Assembly (NCBI GenBank): GCA_022616075.1
Contig: JAKEFK010000024.1
Coordinates: forward strand, 572 to 64,571
Source of the DNA: a bacterium
Lineage (GTDB): Bacteria > Acidobacteriota > HRBIN11 > JAKEFK01
Direction: 5' to 3'
DNA length: 64,000 bases
A model generated the notes under the pieces. The model searched no databases and was not told the DNA's origin. It saw only the letters and a list, made by a program, of their open reading frames with translations. Every line of letters starts with the position of its first letter. Positions within the stretch are counted from its first letter, which is position 1. Below are positions 41,585 to 61,848 of the stretch, one piece after another. The position numbers and the translations under genes were made by a program.

Positions 41585-43174
41585 ATGATCGATGAAATCC
41601 GTTGTTTGAGATGCAATGCAAGGTTCGAAGAAATCGAATTCTGCAACCACGGTGAGATTGTTTCACCAACGCCGTTTTGCGAGGTTTGCGGCGATTGTAT
41701 TTGCGAAAAAAATGGAGATTCAACAGAAAACCGGCAACTGATGGAAATTTTCTATTCAGGAGTTTCTTCAGAGATCCTTGATGAACTTCCACGAAGGAGA
41801 GAGCATGAAGAAAAACTCCTTTCCATGTTTAGGAACTCGACGCATCCTTTGAGCTCAATTGATCATCTGCGTTCGACCTTCACACCGATCGCAGTGAATC
41901 AAATGCTCCGCTTTATCGTCAATGGAGGCATCCGCCGCTATCTTGTGAAAGCCATAAACGAGGACCTTCTTCCCGCCAGATCTCTTTTTTCGCGATCTGA
42001 GTGTTCCGTATTTCGTACTCATTCTCTTTATCCGATTAAAGTGTTCAATTTCGGCTCGCGAAGCAAAGGGGTCGTTCTTCTTGCTGGAACTGCTCACACA
42101 TTGAAGGGCTTATCCCAGCTTGAGCTTGGAAGAGAGGAAGTAGTTTTTGTGGGGGTTGAACTCAATGAGTCCCCCAAGCTTCTTGTCGATCAGTACCAGG
42201 AAGAGCGCGACTATACTCACGTCCTGCGAGTCTTCCGGGCATGGGTGGAGAGAGTGCGTCCTGAATTTGTCCGTTTTACCGAAAATGGAATTCCGCAATG
42301 CCTGATCGGAAAAAAGTGGGTCAAACCGCAGGGCTTCGATTCCACTGACGAATGGATTTCTGACGCGGAAAGGCTCAAGGATGGTTTTGCAGATTCCAGC
42401 GAGTTTTCATTCCGGTTCACTGGGACAACTGATAACTCCATCATCATGACTGTTTCTCCAACAAGAATCTCTGAAGATTCATTGTGGCCGACGTGCGAAC
42501 GCGTCTGGAAAGAGTTGCTGATCGCGCTTGAAAGAGCATCGGGAATATTGCTTATCGCATCGCACCGTGAGGAAGTGGGTTCTGTGCGCCAGTTCCTCAT
42601 GGATAGACTGAAGGAAAGGTTGGTGGAGTTTTCCGATTTCTCCAACTGGGGAATCGATGGCTCCGACTTTTACGCCGGTAACGTCGTATTTGCCGACCAC
42701 ACTCATCTCAAAACAGATCCTCATGATCTGATCGATCTGTCGCAAAGCGTTCCGGTCATTCTCTTCTACACAGGAATTCATCCTTCTGAGTATCTTCGTG
42801 AGCGGCCGATCCGAAGAAGGTTTGAAGCATGCATCGTCGGGCATTATCTCTTTACGAGTTTTCGCCCGCTCTGCAAATGTGCAGAAGGCGTTTCTTCTCA
42901 CGCAGTAAAAATTGCAAATGGCCGAATTGTTGATGCGGACTTTCTCGAACCAAAGGGCTGCGGACAGTGCTATGACTCCGGTTACCGCGACAAATATCTC
43001 CTGCTGTTTCCATATGAAGCACTGGTTCCGGAACCCGATGGAGATCCCTTTATTGATCAAAAGATGTTTGACGATTTTCTCGGTCTGAAGGTGTTGGATT
43101 TTTTCTACGCCTCGCGGCTGTTCGGCGCCTGTTTGAAAAACCAAACGGTAGTCGCAAGACTCGGATCTGAATGA
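41585..43174 (+). CDS. N-terminal Zn-ribbon protein with degenerate PilB/GspE-like secretion-ATPase features (Walker A lost, C-terminal tetracysteine retained)
   Basis: N-terminus CLRCN...CNHG...CEVCGDC. VLLAGTAHTLKG replaces GPTGSGKT. ILLIASHREE sits at the His-box position. C-terminal CKC...GCGQCYDSGYRDKYLLLFPYE resembles the GspE CxxC...CxxC-tGYkGR motif. Confidence 0.4.
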   Translation: MIDEIRCLRCNARFEEIEFCNHGEIVSPTPFCEVCGDCICEKNGDSTENRQLMEIFYSGVSSEILDELPRRREHEEKLLSMFRNSTHPLSSIDHLRSTFTPIAVNQMLRFIVNGGIRRYLVKAINEDLLPARSLFSRSECSVFRTHSLYPIKVFNFGSRSKGVVLLAGTAHTLKGLSQLELGREEVVFVGVELNESPKLLVDQYQEERDYTHVLRVFRAWVERVRPEFVRFTENGIPQCLIGKKWVKPQGFDSTDEWISDAERLKDGFADSSEFSFRFTGTTDNSIIMTVSPTRISEDSLWPTCERVWKELLIALERASGILLIASHREEVGSVRQFLMDRLKERLVEFSDFSNWGIDGSDFYAGNVVFADHTHLKTDPHDLIDLSQSVPVILFYTGIHPSEYLRERPIRRRFEACIVGHYLFTSFRPLCKCAEGVSSHAVKIANGRIVDADFLEPKGCGQCYDSGYRDKYLLLFPYEALVPEPDGDPFIDQKMFDDFLGLKVLDFFYASRLFGACLKNQTVVARLGSE

Positions 43175-43178
43175 TCTC

Positions 43179-44501
43179 ATGGCACTGGAGCTCAATAGAA
43201 CGCGAACGGCACCGATTACTGTTGTCCTGGTGGGTAGTGATAGGGAGGTTTCTCAAATGGAGCTGGCGAATACGAAAGTGAAAGCATTCCGCTTTACCTC
43301 CGGAGAGGAAGCCTTTGATTGGTGCCGTCGGAATGAGGAAACCTTTTCCCTGGTTATCGTTGGTCCACATACAGATGATATGACCGGAAAGAAACTTTCC
43401 AGGCTGATCAAGCAAGAGGTGGTTATGGATGTAATTCTGATTCTTGAATCGAATGACTCAGAGGAGACCGTAAAAAATCACACTGCCGCAGACATTTTGC
43501 TCTACCCAACAGAGTCGGTTATCGATCTTGTGCGGCAGTACATTGCCAATTACGCCTCTTACGGAAAAGGCGTTCCTGATGCTGAAATCATAATGCCGGA
43601 ATTCGAACAAATTTCGGGCTTGAGTAAAGGCGTCACCCTTAAGGGCTATACTCTTATCAACCTGATTGAATCCGGCGGGATGTCGGCTGTCTGGGAAGCG
43701 TATTCGAACATCAACAAGTCCGAGCGCGTCGCTATTAAGTTTCTTCATTCAACCTGGCTGCAGAGTGCAAGGATTTCGGAGTCGTTTAACCATGAAGCGA
43801 TCCTTCTTTCCAAATTTTCTCACAAGAACATTCTGAAGCTTTTGCTGTCCGGTTGCTGGAATTCTTATCAGTACATGATTCTGCCTTACGTTGATGGAAT
43901 GAGAGGTGACGATCTCTTTTCAGTGATTGAGCCTGCTCGCAGCGAAGTTGTGAGTTTCATTGCCTGTGAGCTCTTCAGCACGCTGGAGTACATTCACAAC
44001 TTTGCTGATGATGGATTGCAGCTGAATGTTCAGCATCGAGACGTGTGTCCGGATAATCTTCTCTTTTCGAAATCCGGATCGATGTTTCTAATCGACTTTG
44101 GAAGCGCGCGATCCGGACTGTTTGAGACCGGCTGCGACATTCGTCCTGTTCGTGAAAGCATCGCAGGGCATCATTTATATAATGCTCCCGAACAACTGGA
44201 CCGTTTTCATCCTCAACACAGTCGGCAATCTGATGTCTATTCTGCAGGTTTGACTTTGTACCGGCTCTTCGTACCCAGGCTCTATGCGGATGAGAATCAA
44301 ATATACGCTGACGTAGGGTCGCGAGCGCTTTATCCCCTTCCGGACAACGTTCCGGAGTATTACTGTGACTTTTTTCAAAAAACCCTCGCGCGGGCGCCCG
44401 AAAATCGCCCGACAGCAGCACACGCGCTCGCTTATATCAAGCGTCACTTTCCGCTTTTACAACAAGACGAGTTTAAAAATTACCTTCGTAATTTTATTTG
44501 A
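43179..44501 (+). CDS. Receiver-like N-domain fused to a Ser/Thr protein-kinase domain with an atypical catalytic loop (HRDVCPDN)
   Basis: Gly-loop/VAIK, HRD, DFG (IDFGSA) and APE (YNAPEQ) motifs. The catalytic-loop Lys is replaced by Cys. Confidence 0.7.
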   Translation: MALELNRTRTAPITVVLVGSDREVSQMELANTKVKAFRFTSGEEAFDWCRRNEETFSLVIVGPHTDDMTGKKLSRLIKQEVVMDVILILESNDSEETVKNHTAADILLYPTESVIDLVRQYIANYASYGKGVPDAEIIMPEFEQISGLSKGVTLKGYTLINLIESGGMSAVWEAYSNINKSERVAIKFLHSTWLQSARISESFNHEAILLSKFSHKNILKLLLSGCWNSYQYMILPYVDGMRGDDLFSVIEPARSEVVSFIACELFSTLEYIHNFADDGLQLNVQHRDVCPDNLLFSKSGSMFLIDFGSARSGLFETGCDIRPVRESIAGHHLYNAPEQLDRFHPQHSRQSDVYSAGLTLYRLFVPRLYADENQIYADVGSRALYPLPDNVPEYYCDFFQKTLARAPENRPTAAHALAYIKRHFPLLQQDEFKNYLRNFI

Positions 44502-46156
44502 GCTGTGAGGTTAGGATGATTGACTACAAAAAGAAGCAGATCGTTCTGGACGTTCTTGAACATCTTCGGGAATTTATCCGGTCTGATAATTTGGCTTTCG
44601 AAATTCATAAAGTCATCAAAGACGTTATGAGTGCTGACAACGTCACGGTGATTTTTGGTGACGATCAAGTTGATCAGTACTGGATCACGAGCCAGCCGGC
44701 AGAGGAACGCGGTGTGAGCTACACAGTTGTGAACAAGGCCAAAGCTGATGACAACGATACAGGCTACTGGTTTGCGGAAGTCGCGGAGCGGAGTAAAACG
44801 AAAAGCCAGATGGACTACGACATGAAATATTGCCTGGCTGCGGTTGTAGACACAGCGTCTGTTGTAGATCGCAGGCTCGGAACAATCTATTGTGATGTGC
44901 GCCGGGGACCGCATCGATACACCGAGCAGGATGCGAGATTCTTGAAGTATCTTGCTGACCACCTTGCTGTGTACTTGGAGTTGGTGATCGCCCGAAGAAA
45001 TTCCGCAAAACTCAGAGACCGGAATGATAAGTTTATGGAACTGCAGAAGCAGAATCCTGCAACTGTTCTAGAACGTCTCGTTGGATTTTCTCCGAAGATT
45101 GTGGAGATCAAAAACGACATCATGACTGTGATTTCATGTGTTGAGGAACCGGTCTTGATTCAGGGTGAAACCGGCACGGGCAAAGGTGTCGTTGCAAAGA
45201 TTATCCACGACCTTTCCTCACGCAGCTCAAAGGAGTTTGTAACAGTTGAGTGCAGCAATCTTCAGAAGGAGCTTGCGTATTCCGAACTCTGGGGGCATAA
45301 GAAAGGCGCTTATTCAGATGCGCGCGAAGGCCGTACCGGCCTTGTGCGAACGGCGCATGGCGGAACGCTGTTTCTTGATGAGATCGGGGACCTGCCTCTG
45401 ATCCAACAGGGAATGCTTCTACGAGTTTTACAGGAGGGTAAGGTTCGACCTTTAGGCGAGGATAGAGAAGAAGTGGTAAATTTCCGGCTGATTTGCGCCA
45501 CAAACCGCAATCTCCACAAGATGGTTCAGGAAGGTAAGTTTCGGGAAGACCTTTACTGGCGCATCAACAAGTTCCCAATTTATCTGCCGCCGCTTCGCGA
45601 TAGAAAAGAAGACATTTCGGTTCTTGCTGACCATTTCGCAAAAACGAAGTCCATTTCTCCAGACGCAATATGCTTGCTCAAAGCACTTCCTCTTACCGGA
45701 AACGTCCGTGAGCTGCAGGACCTCATTGGAATGGCGAAAGCATATGCGAAGTCCATGGAGATTACTCTTAAGGACGTGGAACTTGTTCTTGAAAGATGCA
45801 GTGCGAACTGTGTTGCATATCCCGACAACACTTCTTCTACTGAACCCGTGGATGGAAAAGTGCTCTTAAGCAGAGTCTTTTTGCACCAGTTGAGTTTTCA
45901 AGAACTTCAAGAGATGTGGAACAAGAAACGGATCACCAAAGAACAACTCAGGGCTCTTTTTGATGTTCTTTTTACTGTTACGCGTGGAGCGGTTGCTCCC
46001 ATCGGCCGTAGGCTGGGTATTACTGAGCAGAAGGTTATGGATCAGTTCATCGATTGGGTCGGCTACCTGCGCAAGCAGCGAATCCTGCCGCTGAAGGACG
46101 AGTTTGACTTCCCGGCCCGGATTTCACCTGAATCCCTCGATCAAGCTTTTGTCTAG
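44498..46156 (+). CDS. Sigma54-dependent enhancer-binding protein (GAF-like N-domain, AAA+ core, C-terminal HTH) with variant GAFTGA loop (GAYSDA)
   Basis: Walker A GETGTGKG, SELWGHKKGAYSDA, Walker B LFLDEIGDL, R-finger region, C-terminal HTH. Confidence 0.8.
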   Translation: MSCEVRMIDYKKKQIVLDVLEHLREFIRSDNLAFEIHKVIKDVMSADNVTVIFGDDQVDQYWITSQPAEERGVSYTVVNKAKADDNDTGYWFAEVAERSKTKSQMDYDMKYCLAAVVDTASVVDRRLGTIYCDVRRGPHRYTEQDARFLKYLADHLAVYLELVIARRNSAKLRDRNDKFMELQKQNPATVLERLVGFSPKIVEIKNDIMTVISCVEEPVLIQGETGTGKGVVAKIIHDLSSRSSKEFVTVECSNLQKELAYSELWGHKKGAYSDAREGRTGLVRTAHGGTLFLDEIGDLPLIQQGMLLRVLQEGKVRPLGEDREEVVNFRLICATNRNLHKMVQEGKFREDLYWRINKFPIYLPPLRDRKEDISVLADHFAKTKSISPDAICLLKALPLTGNVRELQDLIGMAKAYAKSMEITLKDVELVLERCSANCVAYPDNTSSTEPVDGKVLLSRVFLHQLSFQELQEMWNKKRITKEQLRALFDVLFTVTRGAVAPIGRRLGITEQKVMDQFIDWVGYLRKQRILPLKDEFDFPARISPESLDQAFV

Positions 46157-46268
46157 AACACTTCTTGAACGATCCTTGAGCGGGTAGAAGAGAAAGACCC
46201 AACCGAAAGGGATTGGATTCGAAAATAAGGTCAGCAATTTGGCGAGCAGAGCGAACTCAATGCTTAAT

Positions 46269-46724
46269 TTATAAACGCTGCCACCATTGTTTCACTATCT
46301 GCCAAAATCCGGTTTTTCCTTTGTCGGTTTCCGACATCACTCGGGTATCTTCTGCTGCACCCTCGATTGCCATCTCACCGATGTTGAAGTATCTCTCTTT
46401 CTCAGAGCGGTCGTATGCTCTTCCGGCCTCAATCTCGTTTCTAGACCATCGAGCAGCCCAATGAACATTGTTATTCGTTATCCAATAATGAGACTGGCAC
46501 TCGAAGCTCCAGTTCCCGATCGAAGGATGAAGCGAAATCGTCTTGCCATCAAAGATGAGCTTCCAATCCGTTGGTCCCAGCGGAGTAACGACTTCTTTTC
46601 CACAGCCACAGCAGCACTTGTGGACTACGGTTGCATACCTAATCGATATGTAAAGGGTCTCCTTCTCGATATGATCGGGAATAGATTCGACGAATTCATG
46701 TTTAAGAACTCTCTTCCTTCTCAT
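46269..46724 (-). CDS. Prokaryotic E2-like (UBC-fold) protein
   Basis: HPS-x7-C spacing (HPSIGNWSFEC) like the eukaryotic E2 HPN...C signature. Its stop/start overlaps the E1 gene. Confidence 0.5.
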   Translation of the reverse strand: MRRKRVLKHEFVESIPDHIEKETLYISIRYATVVHKCCCGCGKEVVTPLGPTDWKLIFDGKTISLHPSIGNWSFECQSHYWITNNNVHWAARWSRNEIEAGRAYDRSEKERYFNIGEMAIEGAAEDTRVMSETDKGKTGFWQIVKQWWQRL

Positions 46725-47911
46725 TAACGCATGTCTTCATTTGTGAGCAAGTCGCAATCGATCGTATACGTGCTGTGATGTTCACGCTTGAGGTCGCGAT
46801 AAAAGCCAAACAGTTTCTTCCATTTGATGACAGCTAAGGCGGCGTTGAGAGCGTTGAGATCAGCAATCTGGATATTCGTATCATATTGATTGTCTCTACC
46901 ACCATCCGAAAAAGAGATCCTGTTACGAACATGGTCACGCTGTTTCGGCGTGCTGGTCGTGATCCTTAGAATGCCGCCCAATGAATCATCAGTCACATTA
47001 ACACCCATACCGACGTCGATGAACGGAACGCCGCAGTATTCGAGCATTTCCACGATCATCTTTTTTGCCGAGCTGCGATCCAGGCAAAGAAAACCGAAGT
47101 CCATGTTTTGCAGTTCCCCGACATTCCCTGCATCTACATAAACCGCATGATCAATGACACCCCGGTGCATTTTCGAGTACAGACTCTTCAGGTAGACAAC
47201 CTTAGGTGGCTTCGTCATCAGGTCGTCAATCGAAGGAGCGCCCGGGGATCTGAAAGCGTTGTGCTGCAAAAAAGCATCTCCGTCAAAAAGGTGGATTTCC
47301 TTTACAGGGGTCTTAGCAACAAGATCCAGCACGTAACAGCCGGTTCCGCCCAACCCCACGATTGCAATCTTTAGTGGTTCTAGCTTTTTTGCGACGAAGT
47401 CAATTTCGGCCCTGCTTGAAGCGGTATCGATGTAATTGAATACAGTTTCCTCATTCTCTTTATCTGGTTCGATAACGGGAAACGTTTTTGACGTAATCAA
47501 TGGATCGATCAACTGAGCCGGGCCGGATATGATTGCGACATATGTGGTCACTTTAACGTAATAATCCTCATACAATCCGCTCGGCTTGGGCTTCGCTGAG
47601 AACCTGTGTTGGACCACGACGCCCTCAGCGAGGGTGCGGTTTTCACATGAATTTCTGATCTGCTCTATTTCCTTTCCATCCGCATTGCAGGGGTAATCGC
47701 CGACAAAATGAGCAACATGATCCTCAGGACGTGAGGTTATATCGCCCGCCAGGGTTAATGTTGAGACCAGAATTCCGAGCTTTATTTCTTTGCGGGAGTT
47801 TACATACGGAACATCCTTCACGAGTAAATAGCCGGAACGGATTTGGAGATCATAACCCTCGTCGCGCAGCTTTTTCAGGTCAGCGCTATGACTTATCAGT
47901 TTGCGTGACAT
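46724..47911 (-). CDS. ThiF/MoeB-family E1-like activating enzyme with a roughly 180-aa N-terminal extension
   Basis: Rossmann motif IAIVGLGGTGCYVLDLV...HLFDGDAF typical of E1/ThiF. The N-terminal domain is of unknown function. Confidence 0.7.
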   Translation of the reverse strand: MSRKLISHSADLKKLRDEGYDLQIRSGYLLVKDVPYVNSRKEIKLGILVSTLTLAGDITSRPEDHVAHFVGDYPCNADGKEIEQIRNSCENRTLAEGVVVQHRFSAKPKPSGLYEDYYVKVTTYVAIISGPAQLIDPLITSKTFPVIEPDKENEETVFNYIDTASSRAEIDFVAKKLEPLKIAIVGLGGTGCYVLDLVAKTPVKEIHLFDGDAFLQHNAFRSPGAPSIDDLMTKPPKVVYLKSLYSKMHRGVIDHAVYVDAGNVGELQNMDFGFLCLDRSSAKKMIVEMLEYCGVPFIDVGMGVNVTDDSLGGILRITTSTPKQRDHVRNRISFSDGGRDNQYDTNIQIADLNALNAALAVIKWKKLFGFYRDLKREHHSTYTIDCDLLTNEDMR

Positions 47912-48368
47912 TGAAGATCATTCCATCCTTGATCTTAACTTTTCCTCCAGGCATCAACGTACCTTCTAGGTTCGGATGAGGGCCGCCCTCATATGTGATT
48001 GTGAACAAGATGTTCTCTCCGGTCGGCACAGGGTCGAACGCAAGGGCGACGATTTCATTGAACGACAACTCCTTCTTCGTTACGACTTTCTTTCGGCCAT
48101 TTACGATGATCGTGAATTCCTTGCCCTTGGCGGAACCACTGTGGAAATGCTCGCCATCTTTCAGATGGATTATCTCTTGGTCGTTTGGAATAGGCTGATC
48201 TTCTCTATTGCCGGTAACCTCGCGATATAGCACGAGTCCTGGTTCTATATCGCCGAGCTTATATATGGCCTCGCCTATGGTGGGATTTGGCGATACGTGC
48301 AGCTTCTGATCAATATGAATCCTCACCTCATCGTGTTTCTGGTCCGCTTTCGTTTTTTGTTCAGACAT
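47886..48368 (-). CDS. Multiubiquitin-family (tandem beta-grasp) Ubl protein
   Basis: 160 aa with two beta-grasp-like halves. Operon context with E1 and E2. The C-terminus is ...TQTDKS with no GG. Confidence 0.5.
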   Translation of the reverse strand: MSEQKTKADQKHDEVRIHIDQKLHVSPNPTIGEAIYKLGDIEPGLVLYREVTGNREDQPIPNDQEIIHLKDGEHFHSGSAKGKEFTIIVNGRKKVVTKKELSFNEIVALAFDPVPTGENILFTITYEGGPHPNLEGTLMPGGKVKIKDGMIFNVTQTDKS

Positions 48369-48438
48369 TAAATCATCCTCCTTAAATGTGTTTGGTAACT
48401 CTTCCTTTGCGGCACTGCTTCGCTAATTTCGATTGGCA

Positions 48439-48894
48439 TCAGTTGTCCTGCTGGCATAACCGCGCCCGCAAGCGTGAAATGAGTGTTCTTGCGCGGCCCA
48501 CCTTTGTTTTGGTCAATTCGTGGTAGGAAAATCCGCGCGCAATAGAAACAAGAAGTCGCCATTCCGCCACGCTCATGTCGCCCCGGAGCTCTGCCAGACG
48601 AAGGCGAGCCAGCATCCGATGTTCTGCATGTGGTTCGAGCTGCTCTTGAAGATATTTACGCTTGAGCCGCGCATGGTTCCGTTCAACCCAGGAGCCGGTG
48701 GAAATGGCCGTGTTGAATTTGCGCTGAAATTCTTCTTGATCTGCGGGAACGCCGGTGGATTCAACGGTCGCCAGCAAGAAGGCGAGACCGTTTTCAATAC
48801 CCCAAGTTCGGTGAGTTACTTTGCCGCAACGCGCGGCCTGTGATTGGTGCTCCGCATAAACGCACCAAGGAAAAGGTAAGTCTTCCATGTTCAT
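48439..48894 (-). CDS. Hypothetical protein with C-terminal sigma70-region-4/LuxR-like HTH
   Basis: ...MSVAEWRLLVSIARGFSYHELTKTKVGRARTLISRLRARL. First gene of the Ubl/E1/E2 transcription unit. Confidence 0.4.
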   Translation of the reverse strand: MNMEDLPFPWCVYAEHQSQAARCGKVTHRTWGIENGLAFLLATVESTGVPADQEEFQRKFNTAISTGSWVERNHARLKRKYLQEQLEPHAEHRMLARLRLAELRGDMSVAEWRLLVSIARGFSYHELTKTKVGRARTLISRLRARLCQQDN

Positions 48895-49086
48895 CTCCTT
48901 TTGTGGGGATCGCTATTGTCCCCGCGATGACTGAGTGCAGATGAACCTTTTCATTGGCTTGCTGAACCGCGAACCGGAACGCTGTGCCCGATTCGAGGCC
49001 TATACCAGCCGCCTAGCAAGGCCGTTCTGCCCCACAATTATTGTAGTCCAAAATCGCTTAATGTTACAGATGGTTAGAAAAAAAGA

Positions 49087-50988
49087 TCAGAAAGTTGTCA
49101 ATTGCGTCGCATAAGTGTCTGACCACTCCTTTCGGAGAAGGTCGAACATCTGCTTCCGCTCAGGATCCTGCTGAGCCATCAAACTCTGCGCCCGAGCTAG
49201 CGACAGGAGCATCAACTGGAGTGCTACTAAAGTCTGCTGCGCACCATTGAATGTCTGCGGCTCGGAGGCATTATTTTCCGCACTTGTAGGAGCACCCTCG
49301 GCGACTCGCGCGTCCAGTGTCAGCGCAGCATTGCTCAACGGCTCGTAAAGCCGTCCGTAAAATGGATGTGCCGTGTTGATCGTCAGAATGATTTTGCCGA
49401 ATCGTTGATCTACATGATAAAACGGCCAGTACTCGTCATGCTTATAATGTATGATGTGCTTCGAGCTCTTAACGCGCTCAAAGGCTTCCTCATCAGTCTC
49501 CATTTCCCGCTTGAGCATCATCGCGAGAGTACGGAGGTTCTCATCGAGCTGCCGCTGTTCCTCCGGAGTGTTCGGCGTAGGCTCGATCAAGGCCTTTGCC
49601 TGGCGAAGCTCGGCCTCATCAGCCTTCATTTCACCGGCGCTTGGCTTGCTTCCATGGCGTATTACCGTCTGCTCGCTTTGATATTTCTTGATCTGCTCGC
49701 GAAGTGCAGTTATTTCTCCAGATAGCGCTTCAGAGATGTCCTGCAGCACATAATCCTTGGGACGAATGCCCTGCTTATTCGCGGCTACTCCGAATGCCTC
49801 GTCCAACTCGCCTGGGAAATCGATCTGGATGCGGAGCCAGTTCGCGTCACTGTGACGCTTCATGATCTCTGGAATCGTTCCGATGAAAACCTCGCGGTCG
49901 TTCCGCAAAACAGAGACCGTATTGTCGTCGTATAGGTGCAGGTCGTTTTTGCGAACCTTGAGAGGAAGCGCTCCCCAATCTGAGATCGGCAGGGCGTAGA
50001 GGCGAATAGTGACGGGTGCACGCTCGACGTTTTCCGATTCCTGACTGTGGTTTTCGCTCCGCTTCACTTGGATGACCTTAGAAAAAACTACCCGGCTTTC
50101 TTTCACTCTGATCTCAGGAATTCTGGTGTGCCGAGCAGAGACCATGGAGTATGTCGGATCGAAAGGCTCTACCAGCCGATTATTCACGTAGAGTTTTGTG
50201 CCTTTTGCAAGCGCGCGGCGATAGACACGGGACATCTCTTTGATCGCATGCTCACACAGCGTCCGAGCTTTCGCAAAAGTGAGCCGGTCGCACAACGGCA
50301 AATAAACGATCGTACCTGACTTCCCGAGCCTATCCTTGAGTTCGTCCACATCTTGCGCAAAAAGCGACTGCTCGTTTCGATCGGGAAAAGAGAGTGCTTT
50401 CGTCAAAATATCAGAGACCTCACTCGGCAGCAGGTCCATAAGAGTAGGGTCTGGCAGCTCGATGAGGTTTGATTTTTCCTTTCCGATGGCTTCGACATCG
50501 AGGGTCATATTGTAATAGGCTCCCGATTCCTGCCATGAATAAATGTCAAGAATCGGACTCATGCTGAGCGCCGCAGTTTTCATGCCCATGCCGAAGCGCC
50601 CGATGCCGGAACGGTTGTCAAAGACCATGGAACCGCCGAACGATGTTGCGAATTTTAGGACATTGGGTGCCATCCCGTTGCCGTTATCGAGTACCAAAAT
50701 ATTTGTCTGGTAAGCGCCTTTCTTACCAGTCTGGCTAAAATAGACGCGAACTTCGGTGGCGCCCCACTGGATAGCGTTGTCAATATGCTCGCACAACGCA
50801 GACGTTGTGCTGTTATAACCGACATCGCGCAAAGATCTGATGAGTGTTTGCCCGAAAAAGAGCGGTACGGTCGCCTTTTCCTTGATGATCCGATTCAGTA
50901 CAGTCTTCCCGCCGCGCGGGGCATTCTCGCCCCAAACTGGGGTTTGAGCATCAGCTTCCGACGAGGTGGGAGTATTTTGTTCTAGCAT
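49087..50988 (-). CDS. GHKL/MORC-like ATPase (HATPase_c_3 Bergerat fold) with long coiled-coil C-terminus
   Basis: EHIDNAIQWGATEVRVYF, VLDNGNGMA and GRFGMGMK motifs. The start at 50988 has an AGGAGA RBS. Confidence 0.7.
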   Translation of the reverse strand: MLEQNTPTSSEADAQTPVWGENAPRGGKTVLNRIIKEKATVPLFFGQTLIRSLRDVGYNSTTSALCEHIDNAIQWGATEVRVYFSQTGKKGAYQTNILVLDNGNGMAPNVLKFATSFGGSMVFDNRSGIGRFGMGMKTAALSMSPILDIYSWQESGAYYNMTLDVEAIGKEKSNLIELPDPTLMDLLPSEVSDILTKALSFPDRNEQSLFAQDVDELKDRLGKSGTIVYLPLCDRLTFAKARTLCEHAIKEMSRVYRRALAKGTKLYVNNRLVEPFDPTYSMVSARHTRIPEIRVKESRVVFSKVIQVKRSENHSQESENVERAPVTIRLYALPISDWGALPLKVRKNDLHLYDDNTVSVLRNDREVFIGTIPEIMKRHSDANWLRIQIDFPGELDEAFGVAANKQGIRPKDYVLQDISEALSGEITALREQIKKYQSEQTVIRHGSKPSAGEMKADEAELRQAKALIEPTPNTPEEQRQLDENLRTLAMMLKREMETDEEAFERVKSSKHIIHYKHDEYWPFYHVDQRFGKIILTINTAHPFYGRLYEPLSNAALTLDARVAEGAPTSAENNASEPQTFNGAQQTLVALQLMLLSLARAQSLMAQQDPERKQMFDLLRKEWSDTYATQLTTF

Positions 50989-51369
50989 TTCGATTCTCCT
51001 GTTTTGTGACCACCGGCTGTTCGGGGTCAGAGTCGAGAGCATAATGGCTCTCATTAAATAAGTAGTTGAAAACGCCCAAAAGTTACATTGTGGCCAGAAA
51101 TCGCGTGGAATTTTAGAAGTTTGATCGTTATTGTAAGAATGAGTGACAACGGTTTTCTGCGCGACTGATTCAATCTTTCGATAACGTCTCACGCATTTTG
51201 CTGCAGCCCGAGCGCATTTATGATTTCCGTTGCAATTCTTGTTTTCTCTTTGCTGTTGGAATCATATCCCAGACGAAAGTCTCGGAAATCATTATCTCCG
51301 GAATAAGGACCATAGACTCCACCGTTTGGGGAAGGTACTTCGTAACACAGCCCATTCTTCGAAGCTCCT

Positions 51370-52473
51370 TTACTTGTTTTGTCTAAACATCAATATGTTC
51401 GAATCTGCAGTGGCTTTCGATCTTGATTGTGATTTTTCTCTATAGCCCTCAATAATGGTTTTAAGCATGCCTTCGCCCAATTGCGAATGTGAAGACAGCT
51501 GGGCGAGATCAATAGGAACCCCGTATATAGCCTCGATCATCTGTCGAATTAGCCGTGGTTTTTCTGCCGGTATGTCTAGGCTTTCAGGTTCTTTCATTCT
51601 CCACCCATTAGCGGATAACTGCTCAAATAAGTAACGATATTGTCGCTCCGAAATAGCTCGCACATCAAAGGCTCGCCTGATTAAGGCTTGTATGGAAACG
51701 CCCCATTTTGGTTTTAGCTGTGCGATCCTAGAAAGAGTAAGTGGCGATACAAAATCTCGAACGATGCCTTTCTGAGGCATCAAGAACTCTGCTGCGAACT
51801 GGTTGGCACTCTTCTCCTGTTCAACGCCTAGTCTTTTCTTGTGCCCCAAAATAAGATGGCCTAATTCGTGAGCAATGGTTAGCCTCATCCTGTCAGCAGG
51901 TCTGTTCTTGGAAATCGCAATGAGAGGCACTTGGTCTCCAGGAGTATCATGAACGATTTTGCACGAAAATGCGTCACGTCTTGGAAGCTCGACTGGCAGA
52001 GCCAAAATCAAAACTCCAATTCGTTCTAAAGTATCTATCAAATTCACAATGGGACCATCTTCGGTGAGAATACAATGCATTCTAGTTTCAATGGCTGCTT
52101 GCTGAGGATCACTCGATGGGGATTTTGGGAGAGAGGGGGGGACTGGGCTAATCTTGGCGGCGAGCAGTGTGAAAAGCTCGTAGAGTACTTCTGCATACCG
52201 CTTAGCCTCTACCAATTCCCGTCTTGTCATCGTGGCGTGTGCCCTAAATACAACGGCGCTTGAGTCGAACTCAATCAAAGGATCGTTGGAAAAAAAGGAA
52301 AGAGGGAAGCGGGTGTATCTTGAAATATCAGATATCAAATCGGCGGAAGGCTCTTTGAATCCTCCTTCAATCTGAGCTATCGCGCTCTGAGAAACTTCAA
52401 TTTTGTCAGCCAATTGTTTTTGAGTCCACCCATGAAGTTCCCTTGCTTGTCGTATGCGTTTTCCGCTATACAT
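51370..52473 (-). CDS. Fused XRE-HTH plus ImmA/IrrE-family zinc metallopeptidase (CapH/CapP-like or DdrO/IrrE-like damage-responsive regulator)
   Basis: N-terminal HTH (IRQARELHGWTQKQLADKIEVSQSAIAQIEGG) and an HEXXH motif (HELGHLILGH). Confidence 0.8.
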   Translation of the reverse strand: MYSGKRIRQARELHGWTQKQLADKIEVSQSAIAQIEGGFKEPSADLISDISRYTRFPLSFFSNDPLIEFDSSAVVFRAHATMTRRELVEAKRYAEVLYELFTLLAAKISPVPPSLPKSPSSDPQQAAIETRMHCILTEDGPIVNLIDTLERIGVLILALPVELPRRDAFSCKIVHDTPGDQVPLIAISKNRPADRMRLTIAHELGHLILGHKKRLGVEQEKSANQFAAEFLMPQKGIVRDFVSPLTLSRIAQLKPKWGVSIQALIRRAFDVRAISERQYRYLFEQLSANGWRMKEPESLDIPAEKPRLIRQMIEAIYGVPIDLAQLSSHSQLGEGMLKTIIEGYREKSQSRSKATADSNILMFRQNK

Positions 52474-52479
52474 TTGTTT

Positions 52480-53061
52480 TCATCCATTTTCTTTCTTTTT
52501 GTCCTCTTGTTTCGGTTCGATAGGAAGTTCTCCCGGATCATTCGGAGGTGGAGGCGCGGAAGAAGAAAGACCGGGATTTTTTATTTCCATTATCCAATGA
52601 GCTTCAACGGATTCTTCGTCAGCGTATTTTGGACAAACCAACCAAAGCCGAGAAAGGTTGTGAAGTTTATCAGAATTCCAGATGATGATGAGTTTTAGCG
52701 GGTCAACACCGGTAAAGAGAAGCTGTTGGCAATACGCTTGTCTAGGGTCGGACTTTGACGCCGGCGGATTTTGATCATTTGCTTTCCAAATTCTGATACC
52801 GTAATTTGGAAGTTGGAGCCACAAACCAGCGTTATTGATATGCTCCATCTTGAGATCTGCAAATTCTTTCTTCTGTAAATAGTTCTTGGCATAAGCTCGA
52901 ACATTGCCAGCCCAAATGGTACCATCAAATTCGAGATCGTCAGCATCAACTATTTCTTTTGATTTCATCGCGCCCCATTCCAAGGCGTAATAAATCTCGC
53001 GCAGGAGCCAGTCCAATTCTTGATAAGTTTCTTCAGGATTAGGAAAGTGCGGTAGGTTCAT
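52480..53061 (-). CDS. Hypothetical protein (about 193 aa) upstream of the HTH-ImmA regulator and probably co-transcribed with it
   Basis: Start MNLPHFPN with a GAGGT RBS. No recognised domain. Pro-rich and acidic tail. Confidence 0.4.
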   Translation of the reverse strand: MNLPHFPNPEETYQELDWLLREIYYALEWGAMKSKEIVDADDLEFDGTIWAGNVRAYAKNYLQKKEFADLKMEHINNAGLWLQLPNYGIRIWKANDQNPPASKSDPRQAYCQQLLFTGVDPLKLIIIWNSDKLHNLSRLWLVCPKYADEESVEAHWIMEIKNPGLSSSAPPPPNDPGELPIEPKQEDKKKENG

Positions 53062-53130
53062 CTTCTTATTATTACCTCGTATCGGTAATAAAATTACCAG
53101 CAAATTACCATTCTGTCAATGGCTCCCCGC

Positions 53131-53499: not shown

Positions 53500-55548
53500 T
53501 TACGTCAAGCCAAGCGATTTAAGCGCTGCCGTCATTGGATCGCTGTAAAAGATCGGGTCGACGCGTTCCATGATGTCGGCCGGAACGGCAAGGAAATCGC
53601 GCTTGTTCTCTATCGGAACCATTGCACGGCGAGCACCATTTTCCTTTCCTAATTGAAGGGCTTGGTCTAAGGAGCGCAAAGCCTTAATGTTCCCCTGAAT
53701 GCTCAGATCTCCAAGCACCATTAGCGCTGGCAAAGTCGAAGATTTCTTCAATGCAGAATATATCGAGACAACAAGCGCAACGCCCGTCTCTCCGGTGACG
53801 TGATTGTGCAATAAATCGATGACCTCGACATGGAAGTCAGTCGTATCCACTTGCTGAGCAATTCCCATATCCACCTTATGACCCTGTATGTAGGAGAACG
53901 CGCGACGAAGCGACTCGCGCATCCCGGGATCGATTGCACCTGACAAACTCAGCTTTCCAGTTCCAGATGAGCAACCGACCTCCAGTCGAAACAAACCAAC
54001 TTTTCCTTGATCATCAACGGAGGCCGTGTAAAGCGACCCGGGTGCAAGCGGATCCGCAGAAATCAGATTCCGCCCGCCTTCCTCCGGAACACCGACGTAA
54101 CGCTCCTCACCTGTCTCCTTTTCTATATAGGAGAAAGATGTGTTGAAGAATTCAAATGAACCCATCTTCTTCAACTGCTCTTTGACCCTTCGCCTTCCTT
54201 CCAGTGCGAGCTCCAATATTTCTTGGAGTTCGTCTTTCGTCATCTCGCCATGGGGATAAATTAGTTTGGCCAGCCCTGCAACGGTTTTTCGTGATGCTTT
54301 AACATCACGAGATTTCAATTGCGATCCAAGAGAAAAATGCGTATCAATAATCTCGGTGAAATTGCGGCGGCGGAGCTCACGAAGCGCCTCAGCAAGATAG
54401 TCCACGACGAATCCATACCCTGAAGTGAACATGCTGGTCTGCATTTTCGGAATCTCCCACCCAGGAACATAAAAATGAATGCGGTCCAGAAAGGCGGTGT
54501 CTTCCCGGATCACATCCGGCAAAGGAGCAAATAAATGCGACGACCGGACCATCACATCAACCGCCTGGTGGATATTTCCAAAGAATGCAACCGAAGCAGT
54601 GCCGCTCAATTGCTCTTTTCCTCGCGCAAAACTTCCTGATTCGCAATAGGTCTTCAGCGTGGTAATCACTTCTCGCGGCATCTTCTGCAGGTCGGCCACT
54701 TCATCAAATGCGACCGCATCCCACAAGCCAACCAATCCAATCTTGTTCGTGCTCATGTTGTAGAAAAGATTGGCAACGGTTGTAGGACCAGTTAGAAGAA
54801 TTGCGTACGGAGAGAGTTGCTGGTACGCGAACGATTTTCCGGTTTCGCGGGGTCCCAATTCAATCAGGTTATAATTTTGCTCGCATAATGGCACGAGCCG
54901 CATCAGATAAAGGAGTTTCAACCGCCGGCTCATCCCGATGGGTTCTAGCCCGATTGTGCGAACTAATAAATCGACCCACTCTTCTGATGTGAAACCTTCT
55001 CGCCCGTTAAAATATTCCTGGATATCGAATGTAGCCACCTGAATCGGCTTCAGATCATCAATCCAAAACGGACTCCGGCGACCCTGAACCTGATCATCAT
55101 ATTCATGGCGTAATTCGACCTCGGACCAAACGCCATCCACGAGAAGACGATCGAAATTCCGCACGAACCGGTCCGGGACATGAATGAAGCGGTTCCCGAA
55201 GTTTACGATTTCCGCCCAGTACTTATCATCTTCAGCCAGATACCGAACTTTGACTTTATCAATGAGGATGTGTCGTCCTTTTTCTTTGACAACGGACTGT
55301 GCCTTATTCGCTTCATCGGGGCGCACGAAATTTTCCGCAAGAGTCGAGTTGACGATTTTTAATCCTGCTTCGACTGCGACAGGATCATCGGTTGCACAGT
55401 ACTTGCCTAACAAGTATTCCAGAACATAAACCGGCACTGTTGATCCGAACTTGAGCTTGCGCACCAATTCTTTTCGGACGACCTTACCGGCGAAAGTTTT
55501 GCTGACCTTGGCGTCCAGCGCGTCCGGAACCGACTGGTTAGAAAGCAA
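53500..55548 (-). CDS. brxL: BREX Lon-like protease BrxL
   Basis: 682 aa. The N-terminus (...KVVRKELVRKLKFGSTVPVYVLEYLLGKYC) and a C-terminal Lon protease-like domain are typical of BrxL. Confidence 0.8.
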   Translation of the reverse strand: MLSNQSVPDALDAKVSKTFAGKVVRKELVRKLKFGSTVPVYVLEYLLGKYCATDDPVAVEAGLKIVNSTLAENFVRPDEANKAQSVVKEKGRHILIDKVKVRYLAEDDKYWAEIVNFGNRFIHVPDRFVRNFDRLLVDGVWSEVELRHEYDDQVQGRRSPFWIDDLKPIQVATFDIQEYFNGREGFTSEEWVDLLVRTIGLEPIGMSRRLKLLYLMRLVPLCEQNYNLIELGPRETGKSFAYQQLSPYAILLTGPTTVANLFYNMSTNKIGLVGLWDAVAFDEVADLQKMPREVITTLKTYCESGSFARGKEQLSGTASVAFFGNIHQAVDVMVRSSHLFAPLPDVIREDTAFLDRIHFYVPGWEIPKMQTSMFTSGYGFVVDYLAEALRELRRRNFTEIIDTHFSLGSQLKSRDVKASRKTVAGLAKLIYPHGEMTKDELQEILELALEGRRRVKEQLKKMGSFEFFNTSFSYIEKETGEERYVGVPEEGGRNLISADPLAPGSLYTASVDDQGKVGLFRLEVGCSSGTGKLSLSGAIDPGMRESLRRAFSYIQGHKVDMGIAQQVDTTDFHVEVIDLLHNHVTGETGVALVVSIYSALKKSSTLPALMVLGDLSIQGNIKALRSLDQALQLGKENGARRAMVPIENKRDFLAVPADIMERVDPIFYSDPMTAALKSLGLT

Positions 55549-58099: not shown

Positions 58100-58101
58100 C
58101 T

Positions 58102-61100: not shown

Positions 61101-61848
61101 TGAATACTTGAGTGGCGGCAGGGATATCATCCTTTTGAAATTTCTTCTTTTGCTTGAACACCCGATCGAAGGCAGCGTCCTTTTCCTCCGCAATGAAGAA
61201 CTGATACACCCACCCGATGGTTTCTTCGTTGCCTGGCTCCCATGCCTCTTTTAAATCTTCGCGATTCAGCTCATCGATCAACTGGCGCAATATCTTCGGC
61301 CGCGGGAAAAGGCGGCTCGGGAGATTACCGGCATCAAAAAGCACTCGAATTTCAGAAGCGAGGGTGGCATATTGGGAAAGCAGAAAGTGGCGATAAGCCT
61401 TGTCTCTTGGACCTTCGCTTAGATCATCAACCGGAGTGCTGCCAGCTTCATAGAGCTTGAGATCTTGGTCGTGATCTCCTGAGCCAAGATATTTCTTAAA
61501 TGCGTTCGAGTCATGGTATTTGTTGATTGTTCCGGGCAGTAGCTTCCGGCCTTCAAGCATCTTTAGAGCCACCAACCGGTTCAAGTGAGTGAAAGCTACT
61601 TCTTTAACCAATCTGCTGCAGGCTTGCTCAGCCGTAAAACCCGCATCTTGTTCATCATTGAACAGCTTTTCCAGATCGCTTCGTGTTTGGAGTGCTTCTT
61701 CTGATCTGGCTAAGGCGGGAATTTGATTCTTCGGTAGGAAAGTGCCGTCCGTTGTTAACCCATACACCTGAAGAAGCAGTTCTTCGGCTTCGCGGCTCAG
61801 CAACTCACGCGCCCAGAGTGTTAGTTCACGTATTTTGTCTGTATTCAT
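58102..61848 (-). CDS. pglX: BREX N6-adenine DNA methyltransferase PglX
   Basis: 1248 aa. NPPY catalytic motif (VVFTNPPYMSS), an AdoMet-binding region and a large C-terminal TRD-like region. Confidence 0.85.
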   Translation of the reverse strand: MNTDKIRELTLWARELLSREAEELLLQVYGLTTDGTFLPKNQIPALARSEEALQTRSDLEKLFNDEQDAGFTAEQACSRLVKEVAFTHLNRLVALKMLEGRKLLPGTINKYHDSNAFKKYLGSGDHDQDLKLYEAGSTPVDDLSEGPRDKAYRHFLLSQYATLASEIRVLFDAGNLPSRLFPRPKILRQLIDELNREDLKEAWEPGNEETIGWVYQFFIAEEKDAAFDRVFKQKKKFQKDDIPAATQVFTPRWIVKFLVENSLGRLWLTMHPDSQLANRMEYLVPIPKTPAAKTEKRVADVKVLDPATGTMHFGLVAFDLLAEMYREEIANAGRPGWPEHSSVEREGDIPAAIVGKNVHGIDIDLRAVQLSALTLYIRAKSLNRDCLIKDSNLASSDVAMFRGQHLEQALSGVKLPQQISTKLMQDFCRAVDDGALMGSLVRLEEHFQGIAGPEIKRVVDSYAEKKASDESFFLGETSKGLRLLQLLSQRYDVVFTNPPYMSSRNMNPEMVQFLKDEYPASKGDLYAAFIQRCGELLNEDGRMAMVTQQSFMFISSYEKFREWLLENFAIEAMTHHGPRAFPEVQGEKVNTTAFILRRESFPNDRENSIGVYFRLVKEPDAVAKQLAFENAIGRRKAGEPDALVYEYRQRDFAAISGAPWVYWITEKLRNVFKTSLSLDQFAEPRQGLATADNFRFLKFWWEVKSSNIGFDCQDGEECERRVERWYPYNKGGVFKKWFGNQDYVINYGKNGHEIKAWADPLYGNSGWSRIIKSTEFYFRRGVTWTDLTGGHFSARLSPGGFIFDVSGSSAFPEDVYHVLGVMNSQFAQYALKLINPTVHVQVGDLARLPMPQHASSKLQSLSEQTVSIAKQGSEDDETTYDFIAPHDWVNGIEQIKARRGQLKEIEERIDEEVYRLYEIGEEDRKAIEAELAEPAASGEEESNGDEEEEKAEAEILSKRELAFRWISYAVGITLGRFQPGIEGELGCGRFPVETAKRLRELSDADGLMVLEEGHPDDLAVRVPRILTEIYKDKEATAIIQTATGKAGALRGDLEKYLLGDFFKEHIRRYRKRPIYWLFQSPEKSYNVFAFYEKLTGDTLSLLRGNRYLGGRINRATSDLQQAQQMEPKKTGKEKALLGRKISELAELLEDLKQFDKKLQEAANVEITGVDGKHKVVGWKPEFDDGVLLNAAPIHFLMPSWKPEPKKAWEELKAGEYDWAYTAMRYWPQRVIEACKKNKSYAIAHGLDK

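What the first reader, a model, noticed from the sequence alone, without database searches (positions are those of the whole stretch)
46269..48894. Multiubiquitin-E1-E2 operon with an HTH protein, apparently lacking a JAB/DUB
Four tightly packed minus-strand genes encode (i) a small protein with a sigma70-region-4-like HTH, (ii) a multiubiquitin-type tandem beta-grasp protein, (iii) a ThiF/E1 enzyme with an unexplained roughly 180-aa N-terminal domain, and (iv) a 151-aa protein with the E2 hallmark HPS-x7-C. This resembles prokaryotic Ubl-conjugation operons (multiubiquitin/ThiF/Prok-E2 of Aravind and colleagues; recently described Bil/Bub-type antiphage systems). It differs from them in three ways. 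No JAB/Mov34 peptidase is present. The Ubl does not end in Gly-Gly (…NVTQTDKS). A DNA-binding-type partner is included. It sits inside a defence island next to BREX, so a defence role is plausible. It may be a distinct variant.
Basis: partly seen in the sequence, partly recalled or inferred. Interest (0 to 1): 0.75.

Follow-up and report, generated by a model that had tools for sequence, protein, structure and literature searches.

The report
Ordinary Type II Bub ubiquitin-like operon
This is a typical member of an already described bacterial ubiquitin-like conjugation operon (Type II Bub: tag protein, fused E2-E1 enzyme, serine peptidase); the neighbouring DNA-binding gene belongs to a separate two-gene module next door.

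Summary
The four minus-strand genes exist at the stated coordinates, but two were mis-assigned. The three genes at 46269-48368 are a textbook Type II Bub (formerly 6E.2/DUF6527) operon, as defined by Ye et al. 2024 (bioRxiv 10.1101/2024.11.21.623953). They encode BubA (Ubl), BubBD (E2-E1 fusion) and BubE.

- **The 151-aa "E2 with HPS-x7-C" is BubE.** It is the DUF6527 Ser-His peptidase with a C4 zinc site, so the deconjugating enzyme is present.
- **The missing JAB and the non-Gly C-terminus are family traits.** All 120 closest BubA homologues, and the biochemically active E. coli BubA, end in ...T[D/N]KS.
- **All published catalytic residues are conserved.** These are E2 Ser105 with His102/Lys107, E1 Arg221 and Tyr343, and BubE Ser68/His79.
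- **The sigma-70-region-4-type HTH protein is not a Bub component.** In about 35 Acidobacteriota loci it follows a GHKL ATPase gene. The slot downstream of it varies, and Bub occupies it in only about a quarter of loci.

The defence-island setting (BREX, RosmerTA-like) is confirmed. Verdict: an ordinary member of a known kind, of low interest. The GHKL-HTH module is a minor lead.

The parts
47886..48368 (-). bubA: ubiquitin-like protein, 160 aa. It has a C-terminal Multi_ubiq beta-grasp (residues 85-158) and ends in ...VTQTDKS. The N-terminal domain (about residues 1-82) is conserved, but its fold was not verified.
   Evidence: Pfam PF14452, 2.2e-20. Residues 82-160 align to PDB 9cd2 (E. coli ZDHYS365 BubA), including an identical VTQTDKS terminus. 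All 120 homologues end in Ser. The N-terminal half shows no similarity to the C-terminal half.
47423..47884 (-). E2 (BubB-type) domain of bubBD, residues 10-163. Predicted catalytic Ser105, flanked by His102 and Lys107.
46727..47389 (-). E1 (ThiF-type adenylation) domain of bubBD, residues 175-395. It carries the GxGGxG nucleotide loop (186-191), Arg221, Asp299 and the crossover-loop Tyr343. No conserved cysteine lies in the crossover region.
   Evidence: Pfam ThiF, 1.3e-9; NCBIfam PRK06153.1-4, 602 bits. It matches PDB Citrobacter BubCD. The full protein is 44% identical to E. coli ZDHYS365 BubBD. R221 is conserved in 121/121 and Y343 in 120/121 aligned sequences.
46269..46724 (-). bubE: DUF6527 serine peptidase, 151 aa. 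It has zinc ligands Cys37/39/41/76, the catalytic dyad Ser68-His79, and a Trp-rich amphipathic C-terminal tail (GFWQIVKQWWQRL).
   Evidence: Pfam PF20137, 8.5e-26. It is 46% identical to E. coli ZDHYS365 BubE. C39, C41, C76, S68 and H79 are invariant in an alignment that includes Citrobacter and E. coli BubE. The functions of these residues come from the paper.
48439..48894 (-). Neighbour, not a core Bub part: a 151-aa protein (probable start at Met3, 48888). It has a conserved N-terminal LPFPWxxYxxxQ...WGIExGL region and a C-terminal sigma-70 region 4/LuxR-type HTH (about residues 96-146). It is the partner of the upstream GHKL ATPase gene.
   Evidence: 91 close homologues and 511 cluster representatives, with no Pfam family. 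12 of 43 superfamily members hit Sigma70_r4_2. The family profile hits PDB sigma-4/LuxR HTH domains at about 1e-3 over positions 96-145. The gene always follows the GHKL gene.
49087..51192 (-). Neighbour: a GHKL (HATPase_c_3) ATPase. The ORF is 701 aa, but the likely true start is Met69 at 50988, giving 633 aa as in homologues. It forms a conserved two-gene module with the HTH protein.
   Evidence: Pfam HATPase_c_3, 1.3e-18. Only its N-terminal ATPase fold resembles MzaB, far below that family's cutoff. No PDB relative was found by sequence. It is present upstream of the HTH gene in every locus with enough sequence.

Best explanation

Inferred mechanism, taken from the characterised E. coli and Citrobacter homologues:
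1. The ThiF-type E1 domain of a BubBD dimer adenylates the C-terminal carboxylate of BubA (...TDKS-COOH), using ATP and Arg221.
2. BubA is passed as an oxyester to the crossover-loop Tyr343.
3. It then moves to Ser105 in the N-terminal E2 domain, assisted by His102 and Lys107. This probably occurs on the opposite protomer.
4. It is finally attached to lysines of still unknown targets.
5. BubE, a zinc-stabilised Ser68-His79 peptidase, removes BubA from targets and so fills the deubiquitinase role. This explains why no JAB is present.

Shown here: family membership, domain folds, conservation of every published catalytic residue, and the defence-island context. Inferred by homology: the chemistry. 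Unknown, here as in the literature: the targets and the biological role. An antiphage or stress role is presumed.

The upstream HTH gene belongs to a separate GHKL-ATPase + HTH module that sits next to Bub in a minority of its occurrences.
For: - **Family hits.** Pfam Multi_ubiq, DUF6791+ThiF and DUF6527, and NCBIfam PRK06153.1-4 at 602 bits.
- **Literature definition of Type II Bub.** BubA + an E2-E1 fusion (BubBD) + a DUF6527 protein (BubE), typically without a JAB.
- **Similarity to the tested E. coli ZDHYS365 proteins.** BubBD 44% identity, BubE 46%, and the BubA C-terminal domain including an identical terminus.
- **Catalytic residues conserved.** BubBD H102/S105/K107, R221 and Y343; BubE C37/39/41/76, S68 and H79.
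- **BubA C-terminus.** All 120 homologues end in Ser.
- **Same cassette elsewhere.** The closest BubBD homologues occur as the same three-gene cassette without the HTH or GHKL genes.
- **Defence island.** BREX-1 and a RosmerTA-like pair lie directly upstream.
Against: - No biochemistry exists for this locus. The oxyester mechanism rests on a single preprint's work on homologues that are only 44-46% identical.
- The position of the E. coli catalytic Tyr342 could only be matched through a machine-read supplementary sequence that contains reading errors. It reads V at the aligned position.
- The fold of the BubA N-terminal domain was not established.
- The authors found no phage protection for any Bub operon, so the biological role is open.
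- The HTH gene is only 70 bp upstream of bubA and co-oriented, so co-transcription or regulation cannot be excluded.
Confidence: 0.92

Rival explanations
1. One reading: a new JAB-less variant made of four dedicated parts. These would be an HTH regulator, a multiubiquitin, an E1 with a novel N-terminal domain, and a separate 151-aa cysteine-based E2 (HPS-x7-C). The Ubl would need unusual processing because it lacks Gly-Gly.
For: The gene order and the tight packing. The 151-aa protein does contain HPS...C. No JAB was found.
Against: - The 151-aa protein is DUF6527/BubE (8.5e-26). In that family the Ser and a downstream His form a peptidase dyad and the Cys is a zinc ligand.
- The E2 fold lies in the N-terminal domain of the 395-aa protein.
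- The JAB-less state and the ...TDKS terminus are family-wide.
- The HTH gene tracks the GHKL gene, not Bub.
Confidence: 0.03
2. A composite system. The GHKL ATPase and its sigma-4-type HTH partner would form a sensor or regulator core that drives interchangeable downstream effector cassettes, with the Bub operon as one of them. In this lineage Bub would then work as part of a five-gene unit (49087/50988 down to 46269).
For: - The GHKL+HTH pair is invariant in about 35 loci, and the next gene is always co-oriented and often overlapping or abutting.
- The downstream slot holds alternative modules: Bub in about 5-7 of about 28 informative loci, an unknown family F3 in 7, an MBL-like family F2 in 7, and split helicases in 2.
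- The window's BubBD is closer (77-78%) to BubBDs in non-GHKL contexts than to the BubBD of GHKL locus L003 (70%). This suggests that Bub cassettes were captured repeatedly at this slot.
- The HTH-to-bubA gap is only 56-70 bp.
Against: - The same pattern is expected if the pair simply flanks a hot spot for defence-gene insertion.
- In L001 a DUF3892 gene and a divergent HTH + M78 regulator pair lie between the HTH gene and Bub.
- Bub cassettes usually stand alone or carry CapH/CapP-like regulators.
- No functional or expression data exist.
- The promoter and terminator scans are at chance level.
Confidence: 0.17
3. A sulfur-carrier (ThiS/MoaD-type) activation system for cofactor or thio-modification biosynthesis, not protein conjugation.
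For: The E1 domain has weak ThiF/MoeB hits. Some database names call homologues 'molybdopterin/thiamine biosynthesis adenylyltransferase'.
Against: - The scores for the ThiF and MoeB equivalogs are far below their cutoffs (21-23 bits against 159-275).
- BubA lacks the Gly-Gly terminus that sulfur carriers need.
- A fused E2 fold and a dedicated peptidase are present.
- No thiamine or molybdopterin genes are nearby. The neighbours are BREX, a RosmerTA-like pair, integrases and transposases.
Confidence: 0.01

Closest known systems
Type II Bub operon (bacterial ubiquitination-like; formerly 6E.2/DUF6527 operons), e.g. E. coli ZDHYS365 BubA/BubBD/BubE (Ye, Gong, Chambers & Corbett 2024, bioRxiv 10.1101/2024.11.21.623953)
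   Same: - Same three genes in the same order, with overlapping reading frames.
- Same domain architecture: Ubl; DUF6791 E2 fused to a ThiF E1; DUF6527 peptidase.
- 44-46% identity to the tested proteins.
- The same catalytic Ser/Lys/His, Arg and Tyr in BubBD, and the same Ser-His dyad and C4 zinc site in BubE.
- Identical BubA C-terminus (VTQTDKS).
- No JAB.
- Defence-island or mobile-element context.
   Different: - BubA here is 160 aa, with one verified beta-grasp plus an about 80-aa N-terminal domain. E. coli BubA is a 222-aa Ubl with three beta-grasp domains.
- The host is an uncultured, probably acidobacterial, MAG.
- The cassette sits directly downstream of a GHKL-ATPase + HTH pair, rather than next to a CapW/BrxR or divergently transcribed CapH/CapP regulator.
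Type I Bub operon (formerly 6E.1), e.g. Citrobacter sp. RHBSTW-00271 BubAB/BubCD/BubE
   Same: - BubE family with the same Ser-His dyad and zinc cysteines.
- An E1 with a crossover-loop Tyr and no catalytic Cys.
   Different: - Type I fuses the Ubl to the E2, and a JAB peptidase to the E1.
- Its BubA ends in Gly after JAB cleavage.
- Its E2 Ser is accompanied by His+Asp, not Lys+His.
- None of these features is present here.
Bil (bacterial ISG15-like) systems and Type II CBASS Cap2/Cap3
   Same: Bacterial E1/E2-based conjugation systems found in defence islands. Cap2 is also an E2-E1 fusion, and the window's BubBD gives weak PADLOC 'E1-E2' hits over the E1 nucleotide-binding region only.
   Different: - Bil and CBASS use catalytic cysteines (thioesters) and JAB peptidases.
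- Their substrates end in Gly after processing.
- No Bil or Cap2 family model reaches significance over the whole protein here.
ECF sigma factor region 4 / LuxR-GerE HTH domains (for the 151-aa neighbour)
   Same: The C-terminal roughly 50 residues match sigma-70 r4_2/GerE profiles and solved sigma-4 and VraR/NarL DNA-binding domains.
   Different: - No sigma region 2 was detected.
- The N-terminal roughly 90 residues (LPFPW...WGIENGL) match no known family.
- The window protein itself scores below every Pfam threshold.
- The AF2 model is of low confidence (pLDDT 61).

Membership tests
Type II Bub operon | [quoted passage not shown] | tested here: met
   Pfam Multi_ubiq; DUF6791+ThiF on one 395-aa protein; DUF6527. 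The ORFs overlap. The definition is quoted.
Type II Bub operon | The N-terminal domain of BubBD has an E2 (UBC-like, BubB) fold | tested here: met
Type II Bub operon | An invariant E2 Ser accompanied by Lys and His, instead of a catalytic Cys | tested here: met
   S105 (121/121), H102 (119/121) and K107 (113/121) are conserved and align to E. coli S106/H103/K108.
Type II Bub operon | An E1 adenylation domain with a conserved Arg and an invariant crossover-loop Tyr, and no catalytic Cys | tested here: met
   R221 is conserved in 121/121 and Y343 in 120/121 aligned sequences. The only conserved cysteines are C75 (E2 domain) and C276, and neither lies in the crossover region. Caveat: the E. coli reference sequence was machine-read and shows V at the Tyr column.
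Type II Bub operon | BubE with a C4 zinc site and a Ser-His dyad, plus a hydrophobic terminal extension | tested here: met
   C37/C39/C41/C76, S68 and H79 align with Citrobacter C57/59/61/99, S92 and H102. The Ser-to-His spacing equals that of E. coli (S65/H76). The C-terminal tail is GFWQIVKQWWQRL.
Type II Bub operon | No JAB/JAMM peptidase in the operon | tested here: met
   No JAB hit in the four proteins or in ten scanned neighbours.
Type II Bub operon | ATP-dependent BubA conjugation through oxyester intermediates; BubE cleaves the conjugates | not testable with these tools
   Shown only for the E. coli and Citrobacter proteins. Inferred here by homology.
Type I Bub operon | A Ubl-E2 fusion and a JAB-E1 fusion | tested here: not met
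   The Ubl is a separate gene, the E2 is fused to the E1, and there is no JAB.
Bil / Type II CBASS (Cap2-Cap3) conjugation systems | Catalytic Cys in the E1 and E2, a JAB peptidase, and a Gly C-terminus on the substrate | tested here: not met
   Ser and Tyr occupy the catalytic positions. No JAB is present. BubA ends in Ser. There are only weak local PADLOC E1-E2 hits.
ThiS/MoaD sulfur-carrier activation (ThiF/MoeB) | An equivalog-level match to ThiF/MoeB, a Gly-Gly carrier protein, and a biosynthetic gene neighbourhood | tested here: not met
   ThiF and MoeB scores of 13-23 bits against cutoffs of 152-377. The carrier ends in Ser. The neighbourhood is defence-related.
Sigma-70 region 4 / LuxR-type HTH (151-aa neighbour) | A significant match of the C-terminal domain to r4/GerE profiles or structures | tested here: inconclusive
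   The window protein has no Pfham-level hit: it has no Pfam hit. However, 12 of 43 superfamily members hit Sigma70_r4_2 (best 2.9e-6), and the family profile hits PDB sigma-4/VraR domains at about 1e-3. The Foldseek hits of the low-confidence model are non-significant.

The most novel reading that the evidence does not exclude
In Acidobacteriota, a conserved GHKL-ATPase + sigma-4-type HTH pair may be a previously undescribed sensor or regulator core that carries interchangeable downstream cassettes: a Bub operon, an unknown 230-370-aa family, an MBL-like family, or split helicases. The Bub operon in this window would then act as the output module of a five-gene system. That could explain why isolated Bub operons have shown no phage protection so far.
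Probability: 0.15. Interest if true: 0.6.

Novelty: new member of a known kind. Interest (0 to 1): 0.2.

Why it matters
Taken by itself, this matters little. The operon is one of thousands of Type II Bub cassettes: at least 8,000 BubBD homologues were scored, and Pfam already names PF20137 'BubE'. Its architecture, its lack of a JAB and its non-Gly terminus are the published norm.

The main value is corrective. The 'E2' is the peptidase, and the 'unknown domain' is the E2.

Two open points keep some interest alive. First, the biological role and targets of Bub systems are still unknown. Second, Bub cassettes recur directly downstream of a GHKL-ATPase/HTH pair in one phylum. This gives a concrete, testable candidate for a missing regulator or partner.

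Tried and rejected
- **PADLOC 2023 models.** They contain no Bub models. The only hits were weak Cap2-type 'E1-E2' matches over the nucleotide-binding loop, so this was not informative.
- **Exact-sequence contig lookup for the window's BubBD.** Nothing was found, although search for homologous proteins later returned a 100% match.
- **AF2 model of the HTH protein.** Low confidence (pLDDT 61). Its Foldseek search gave only non-significant hits, though these were enriched in ECF sigma factors. The HTH assignment rests on profile searches instead.
- **Tests for a second beta-grasp in BubA.** hhalign of the N-terminal half against the C-terminal half, and an HMM of the N-terminal half against E. 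coli and Citrobacter BubA, were both negative.
- **Promoter and terminator scan of 46000-51500.** At chance level.
- **tRNA scan of the window.** None found, so no tRNA-anchored island boundary lies in the window.
- **Is the XRE-M78 protein at 51370-52473 a CapH/CapP-type Bub regulator?** Considered and rejected. It scores far better as RmrA (RosmerTA antitoxin) and has an RmrT-like partner. It is also separated from Bub by the GHKL/HTH pair.
Full report
**Observation**

- 48439-48894 (151 aa)
- 47886-48368 (160 aa)
- 46724-47911 (395 aa)
- 46269-46724 (151 aa)

The last three overlap, by 26 nt and by 1 nt, as in a translationally coupled operon. The first is separated from the second by 70 bp. 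All are real genes. Sequences identical or nearly identical to them are deposited at NCBI from a 74,110-bp contig of an unclassified bacterial MAG. They are annotated 'hypothetical protein', 'multiubiquitin domain-containing protein' and 'ThiF family adenylyltransferase'.

**Domain content**

Pfam gives the following:
- Multi_ubiq (2e-20, residues 85-158) for the 160-aa protein.
- DUF6791 (1.4e-57, residues 10-163) plus ThiF (residues 175-302) for the 395-aa protein.
- Nothing for the upstream 151-aa protein.

NCBIfam places the 395-aa protein in PRK06153.1-4 at 602 bits (cutoff 352). The ThiF and MoeB equivalogs score far below their cutoffs.

**What is known**

A full-text search for DUF6527 led to Ye, Gong, Chambers & Corbett 2024 (bioRxiv 10.1101/2024.11.21.623953) and a companion paper. 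These papers rename the '6E/DUF6527' operons of earlier comparative genomics as Bub (bacterial ubiquitination-like).
[quoted passage not shown] The adenylation Arg is R219.
- BubE is a new serine peptidase with a Ser-His dyad and a C4 zinc site. It removes BubA-target conjugates.
- No phage protection has yet been shown. The operons sit in mobile elements and defence loci, often alongside CapW/BrxR or CapH+CapP regulators.

**Membership tests on the window proteins**

*BubBD.*
- It is 44% identical over its full length to E. coli BubBD.
- In an alignment with 120 homologues plus E. coli, S105, R221 and Y343 are conserved in at least 120 of 121 sequences. H102 is conserved in 119/121 and K107 in 113/121. 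These align to the published E. coli residues.
- One caveat applies. The E. coli sequence I used was machine-read from the supplementary PDF and contains reading errors. It shows V at the Tyr column, and its numbering drifts by 1-2 residues.
- The 'unexplained N-terminal domain' is therefore the E2.

*BubE.*
- It is 46% identical to E. coli BubE.
- An alignment with eight other Type II BubEs and with Citrobacter BubE keeps C39, C41, C76, S68 and H79 invariant.
- The Trp-rich C-terminal tail matches the hydrophobic extension described for BubE.

*BubA.*
- Residues 82-160 align to PDB 9cd2 (E. coli BubA), down to an identical C-terminus, VTQTDKS.
- All 120 closest homologues end in Ser, with the motif T-x-T-[D/N]-K-S.
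- E. coli BubA with this terminus is conjugated by BubBD and ATP alone. The missing Gly-Gly is therefore a clade trait and not an anomaly.
- The N-terminal 82 residues are conserved. They show no detectable similarity to the C-terminal beta-grasp or to other BubA domains, so a 'tandem beta-grasp' remains unproven.

**The HTH protein**

It belongs to a well-conserved family: 91 close homologues and 511 cluster representatives at profile level. All are about 150 aa and all are unannotated.
- 12 of 43 distant members hit Pfam Sigma70_r4_2 (best 2.9e-6).
- The family profile hits solved sigma-4 and LuxR-type DNA-binding domains at about 1e-3, always over positions 96-145.
The window protein itself scores below threshold, however, and its AF2 model is poor.

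Its genomic partner is not Bub.
- In every locus with enough upstream sequence, it directly follows a highly conserved GHKL (HATPase_c_3) ATPase of about 633-641 aa. This covers about 35 loci; every one of the eight genome loci with a named source is from Terriglobia or Bryobacterales.
- The window's copy of that ATPase is the ORF at 49087-51192.
- The gene after the HTH gene is co-oriented and variable:
  - Bub in about 5-7 of about 28 informative loci.
  - An unknown family in 7 loci.
  - A weakly MBL-like family in 7 loci.
  - Split ResIII helicases in 2 loci.
  - Other genes in the rest.
- Conversely, four of the closest BubBD homologues from other lineages (70-78% identity) sit in bare three-gene cassettes. 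Upstream of them are HTH and/or M78 genes on the opposite strand. No GHKL/HTH pair is present, even when searched with the broad family profile.
- The window's BubBD is closer to these (77-78%) than to the BubBD of another GHKL locus (70%). This points to repeated capture of Bub cassettes at this slot.

Two readings fit this pattern. The pair may flank an insertion hot spot, or it may be a core with swappable output modules. The second is the most novel reading that the evidence does not exclude. I put it at about 15%.

**Context**

Directly upstream on the same strand are:
- A RosmerTA-like pair: RmrA at 1e-67 and RmrT at 1e-9 (51370-53103).
- A type 1 BREX cluster, BrxL, PglZ, PglX and part of BrxC, with a HEPN gene inserted (53500-63943).

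Downstream and convergent are a 529-aa unknown protein, a Ser/Thr kinase and a sigma-54-type AAA+ protein (41585-46156). Genes left of about 37 kb look like housekeeping genes. The window contains no tRNA. The defence-island claim holds.

**Verdict**

This is an ordinary Type II Bub operon. It is correctly recognised as a Ubl-conjugation system in a defence island, but it is not a distinct variant.
- The deconjugating peptidase is present. It is BubE, which was mistaken for the E2.
- The E2 is the N-terminal domain of the E1 protein.
- The non-Gly terminus and the missing JAB are defining family features.
- The HTH gene belongs to a neighbouring GHKL module.

Novelty: a new member of a known kind. 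Interest is low (0.2). The GHKL-HTH module and its variable cargo are a modest side lead.

Noticed in passing
window 48439-51192 (-); loci L001, L003, L005, L007, L009-L014, L019-L046: A GHKL (HATPase_c_3) ATPase of about 633 aa and a 150-aa sigma-4-type HTH protein form an invariant two-gene module in Acidobacteriota. A variable, co-oriented cassette follows it: Bub, an unknown 230-370-aa family, an MBL-like family, split helicases, or DUF3892. Neither protein matches a curated defence family beyond the ATPase fold.
   Followed up: partly
window 53500-63943 (-): A type 1 BREX cluster (BrxL, PglZ, PglX, and the C-terminal part of BrxC cut by the window end). A 286-aa RiboL-PSP HEPN gene (61845-62705) is inserted between pglX and brxC.
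   Followed up: no
window 51370-53103 (-): A RosmerTA-like pair: a 367-aa XRE-HTH + M78 peptidase fusion (RmrA, 1e-67) preceded by a 207-aa weak RmrT match (1e-9). It lies between BREX and the GHKL gene.
   Followed up: no
window 41585-46156 (+): A three-gene block convergent with Bub: a 529-aa Cys-rich protein with no family hit, a 440-aa Ser/Thr kinase (PD-T4-6/mad6-like kinase domain), and a 552-aa sigma-54-interaction AAA+ protein (RtcR/PspF-like PADLOC hit). It may be another defence or regulatory module.
   Followed up: no
window 47687-47689 (Cys75 of BubBD): Cys75 in the E2 domain (motif D-Y-P-C-N) is invariant in all 121 aligned BubBDs, including E. coli (C76). The family is nevertheless described as working without catalytic cysteines, so the role of this residue is unexplained.
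   Followed up: no
window 48123-48368 (BubA residues 1-82): The N-terminal half of BubA is strongly conserved (R16-I-H-I-D20 ... E73-H-F-H76). It shows no sequence similarity to the C-terminal beta-grasp or to the other domains of E. coli or Citrobacter BubA, and its fold is undetermined.
   Followed up: partly
L022 8957-10140: In this GHKL-HTH-Bub locus, bubBD appears split into two ORFs by a frameshift or stop. This may be a pseudogene or an assembly error.
   Followed up: no
L001 8498-10693: Here a DUF3892 gene, a divergently transcribed M78 peptidase + XRE HTH pair (CapP/CapH-like), and a 158-aa ORF with a weak GIY-YIG hit lie between the HTH gene and bubA.
   Followed up: no
L016 7877-10831: Immediately downstream of a Bub cassette in another MAG lies a different weak HATPase_c_3 protein (427 aa), followed by a 177-aa protein and a SIR2_2 protein. 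The 177-aa protein is not related to the HTH family.
   Followed up: partly
window 46197-46218 (-): A terminator-like hairpin about 50 nt after the bubE stop codon. A sigma-70-like promoter match lies at 49040-49067 (-), in the gap between the GHKL and HTH genes. Both kinds of match occur at chance frequency in this region.
   Followed up: no
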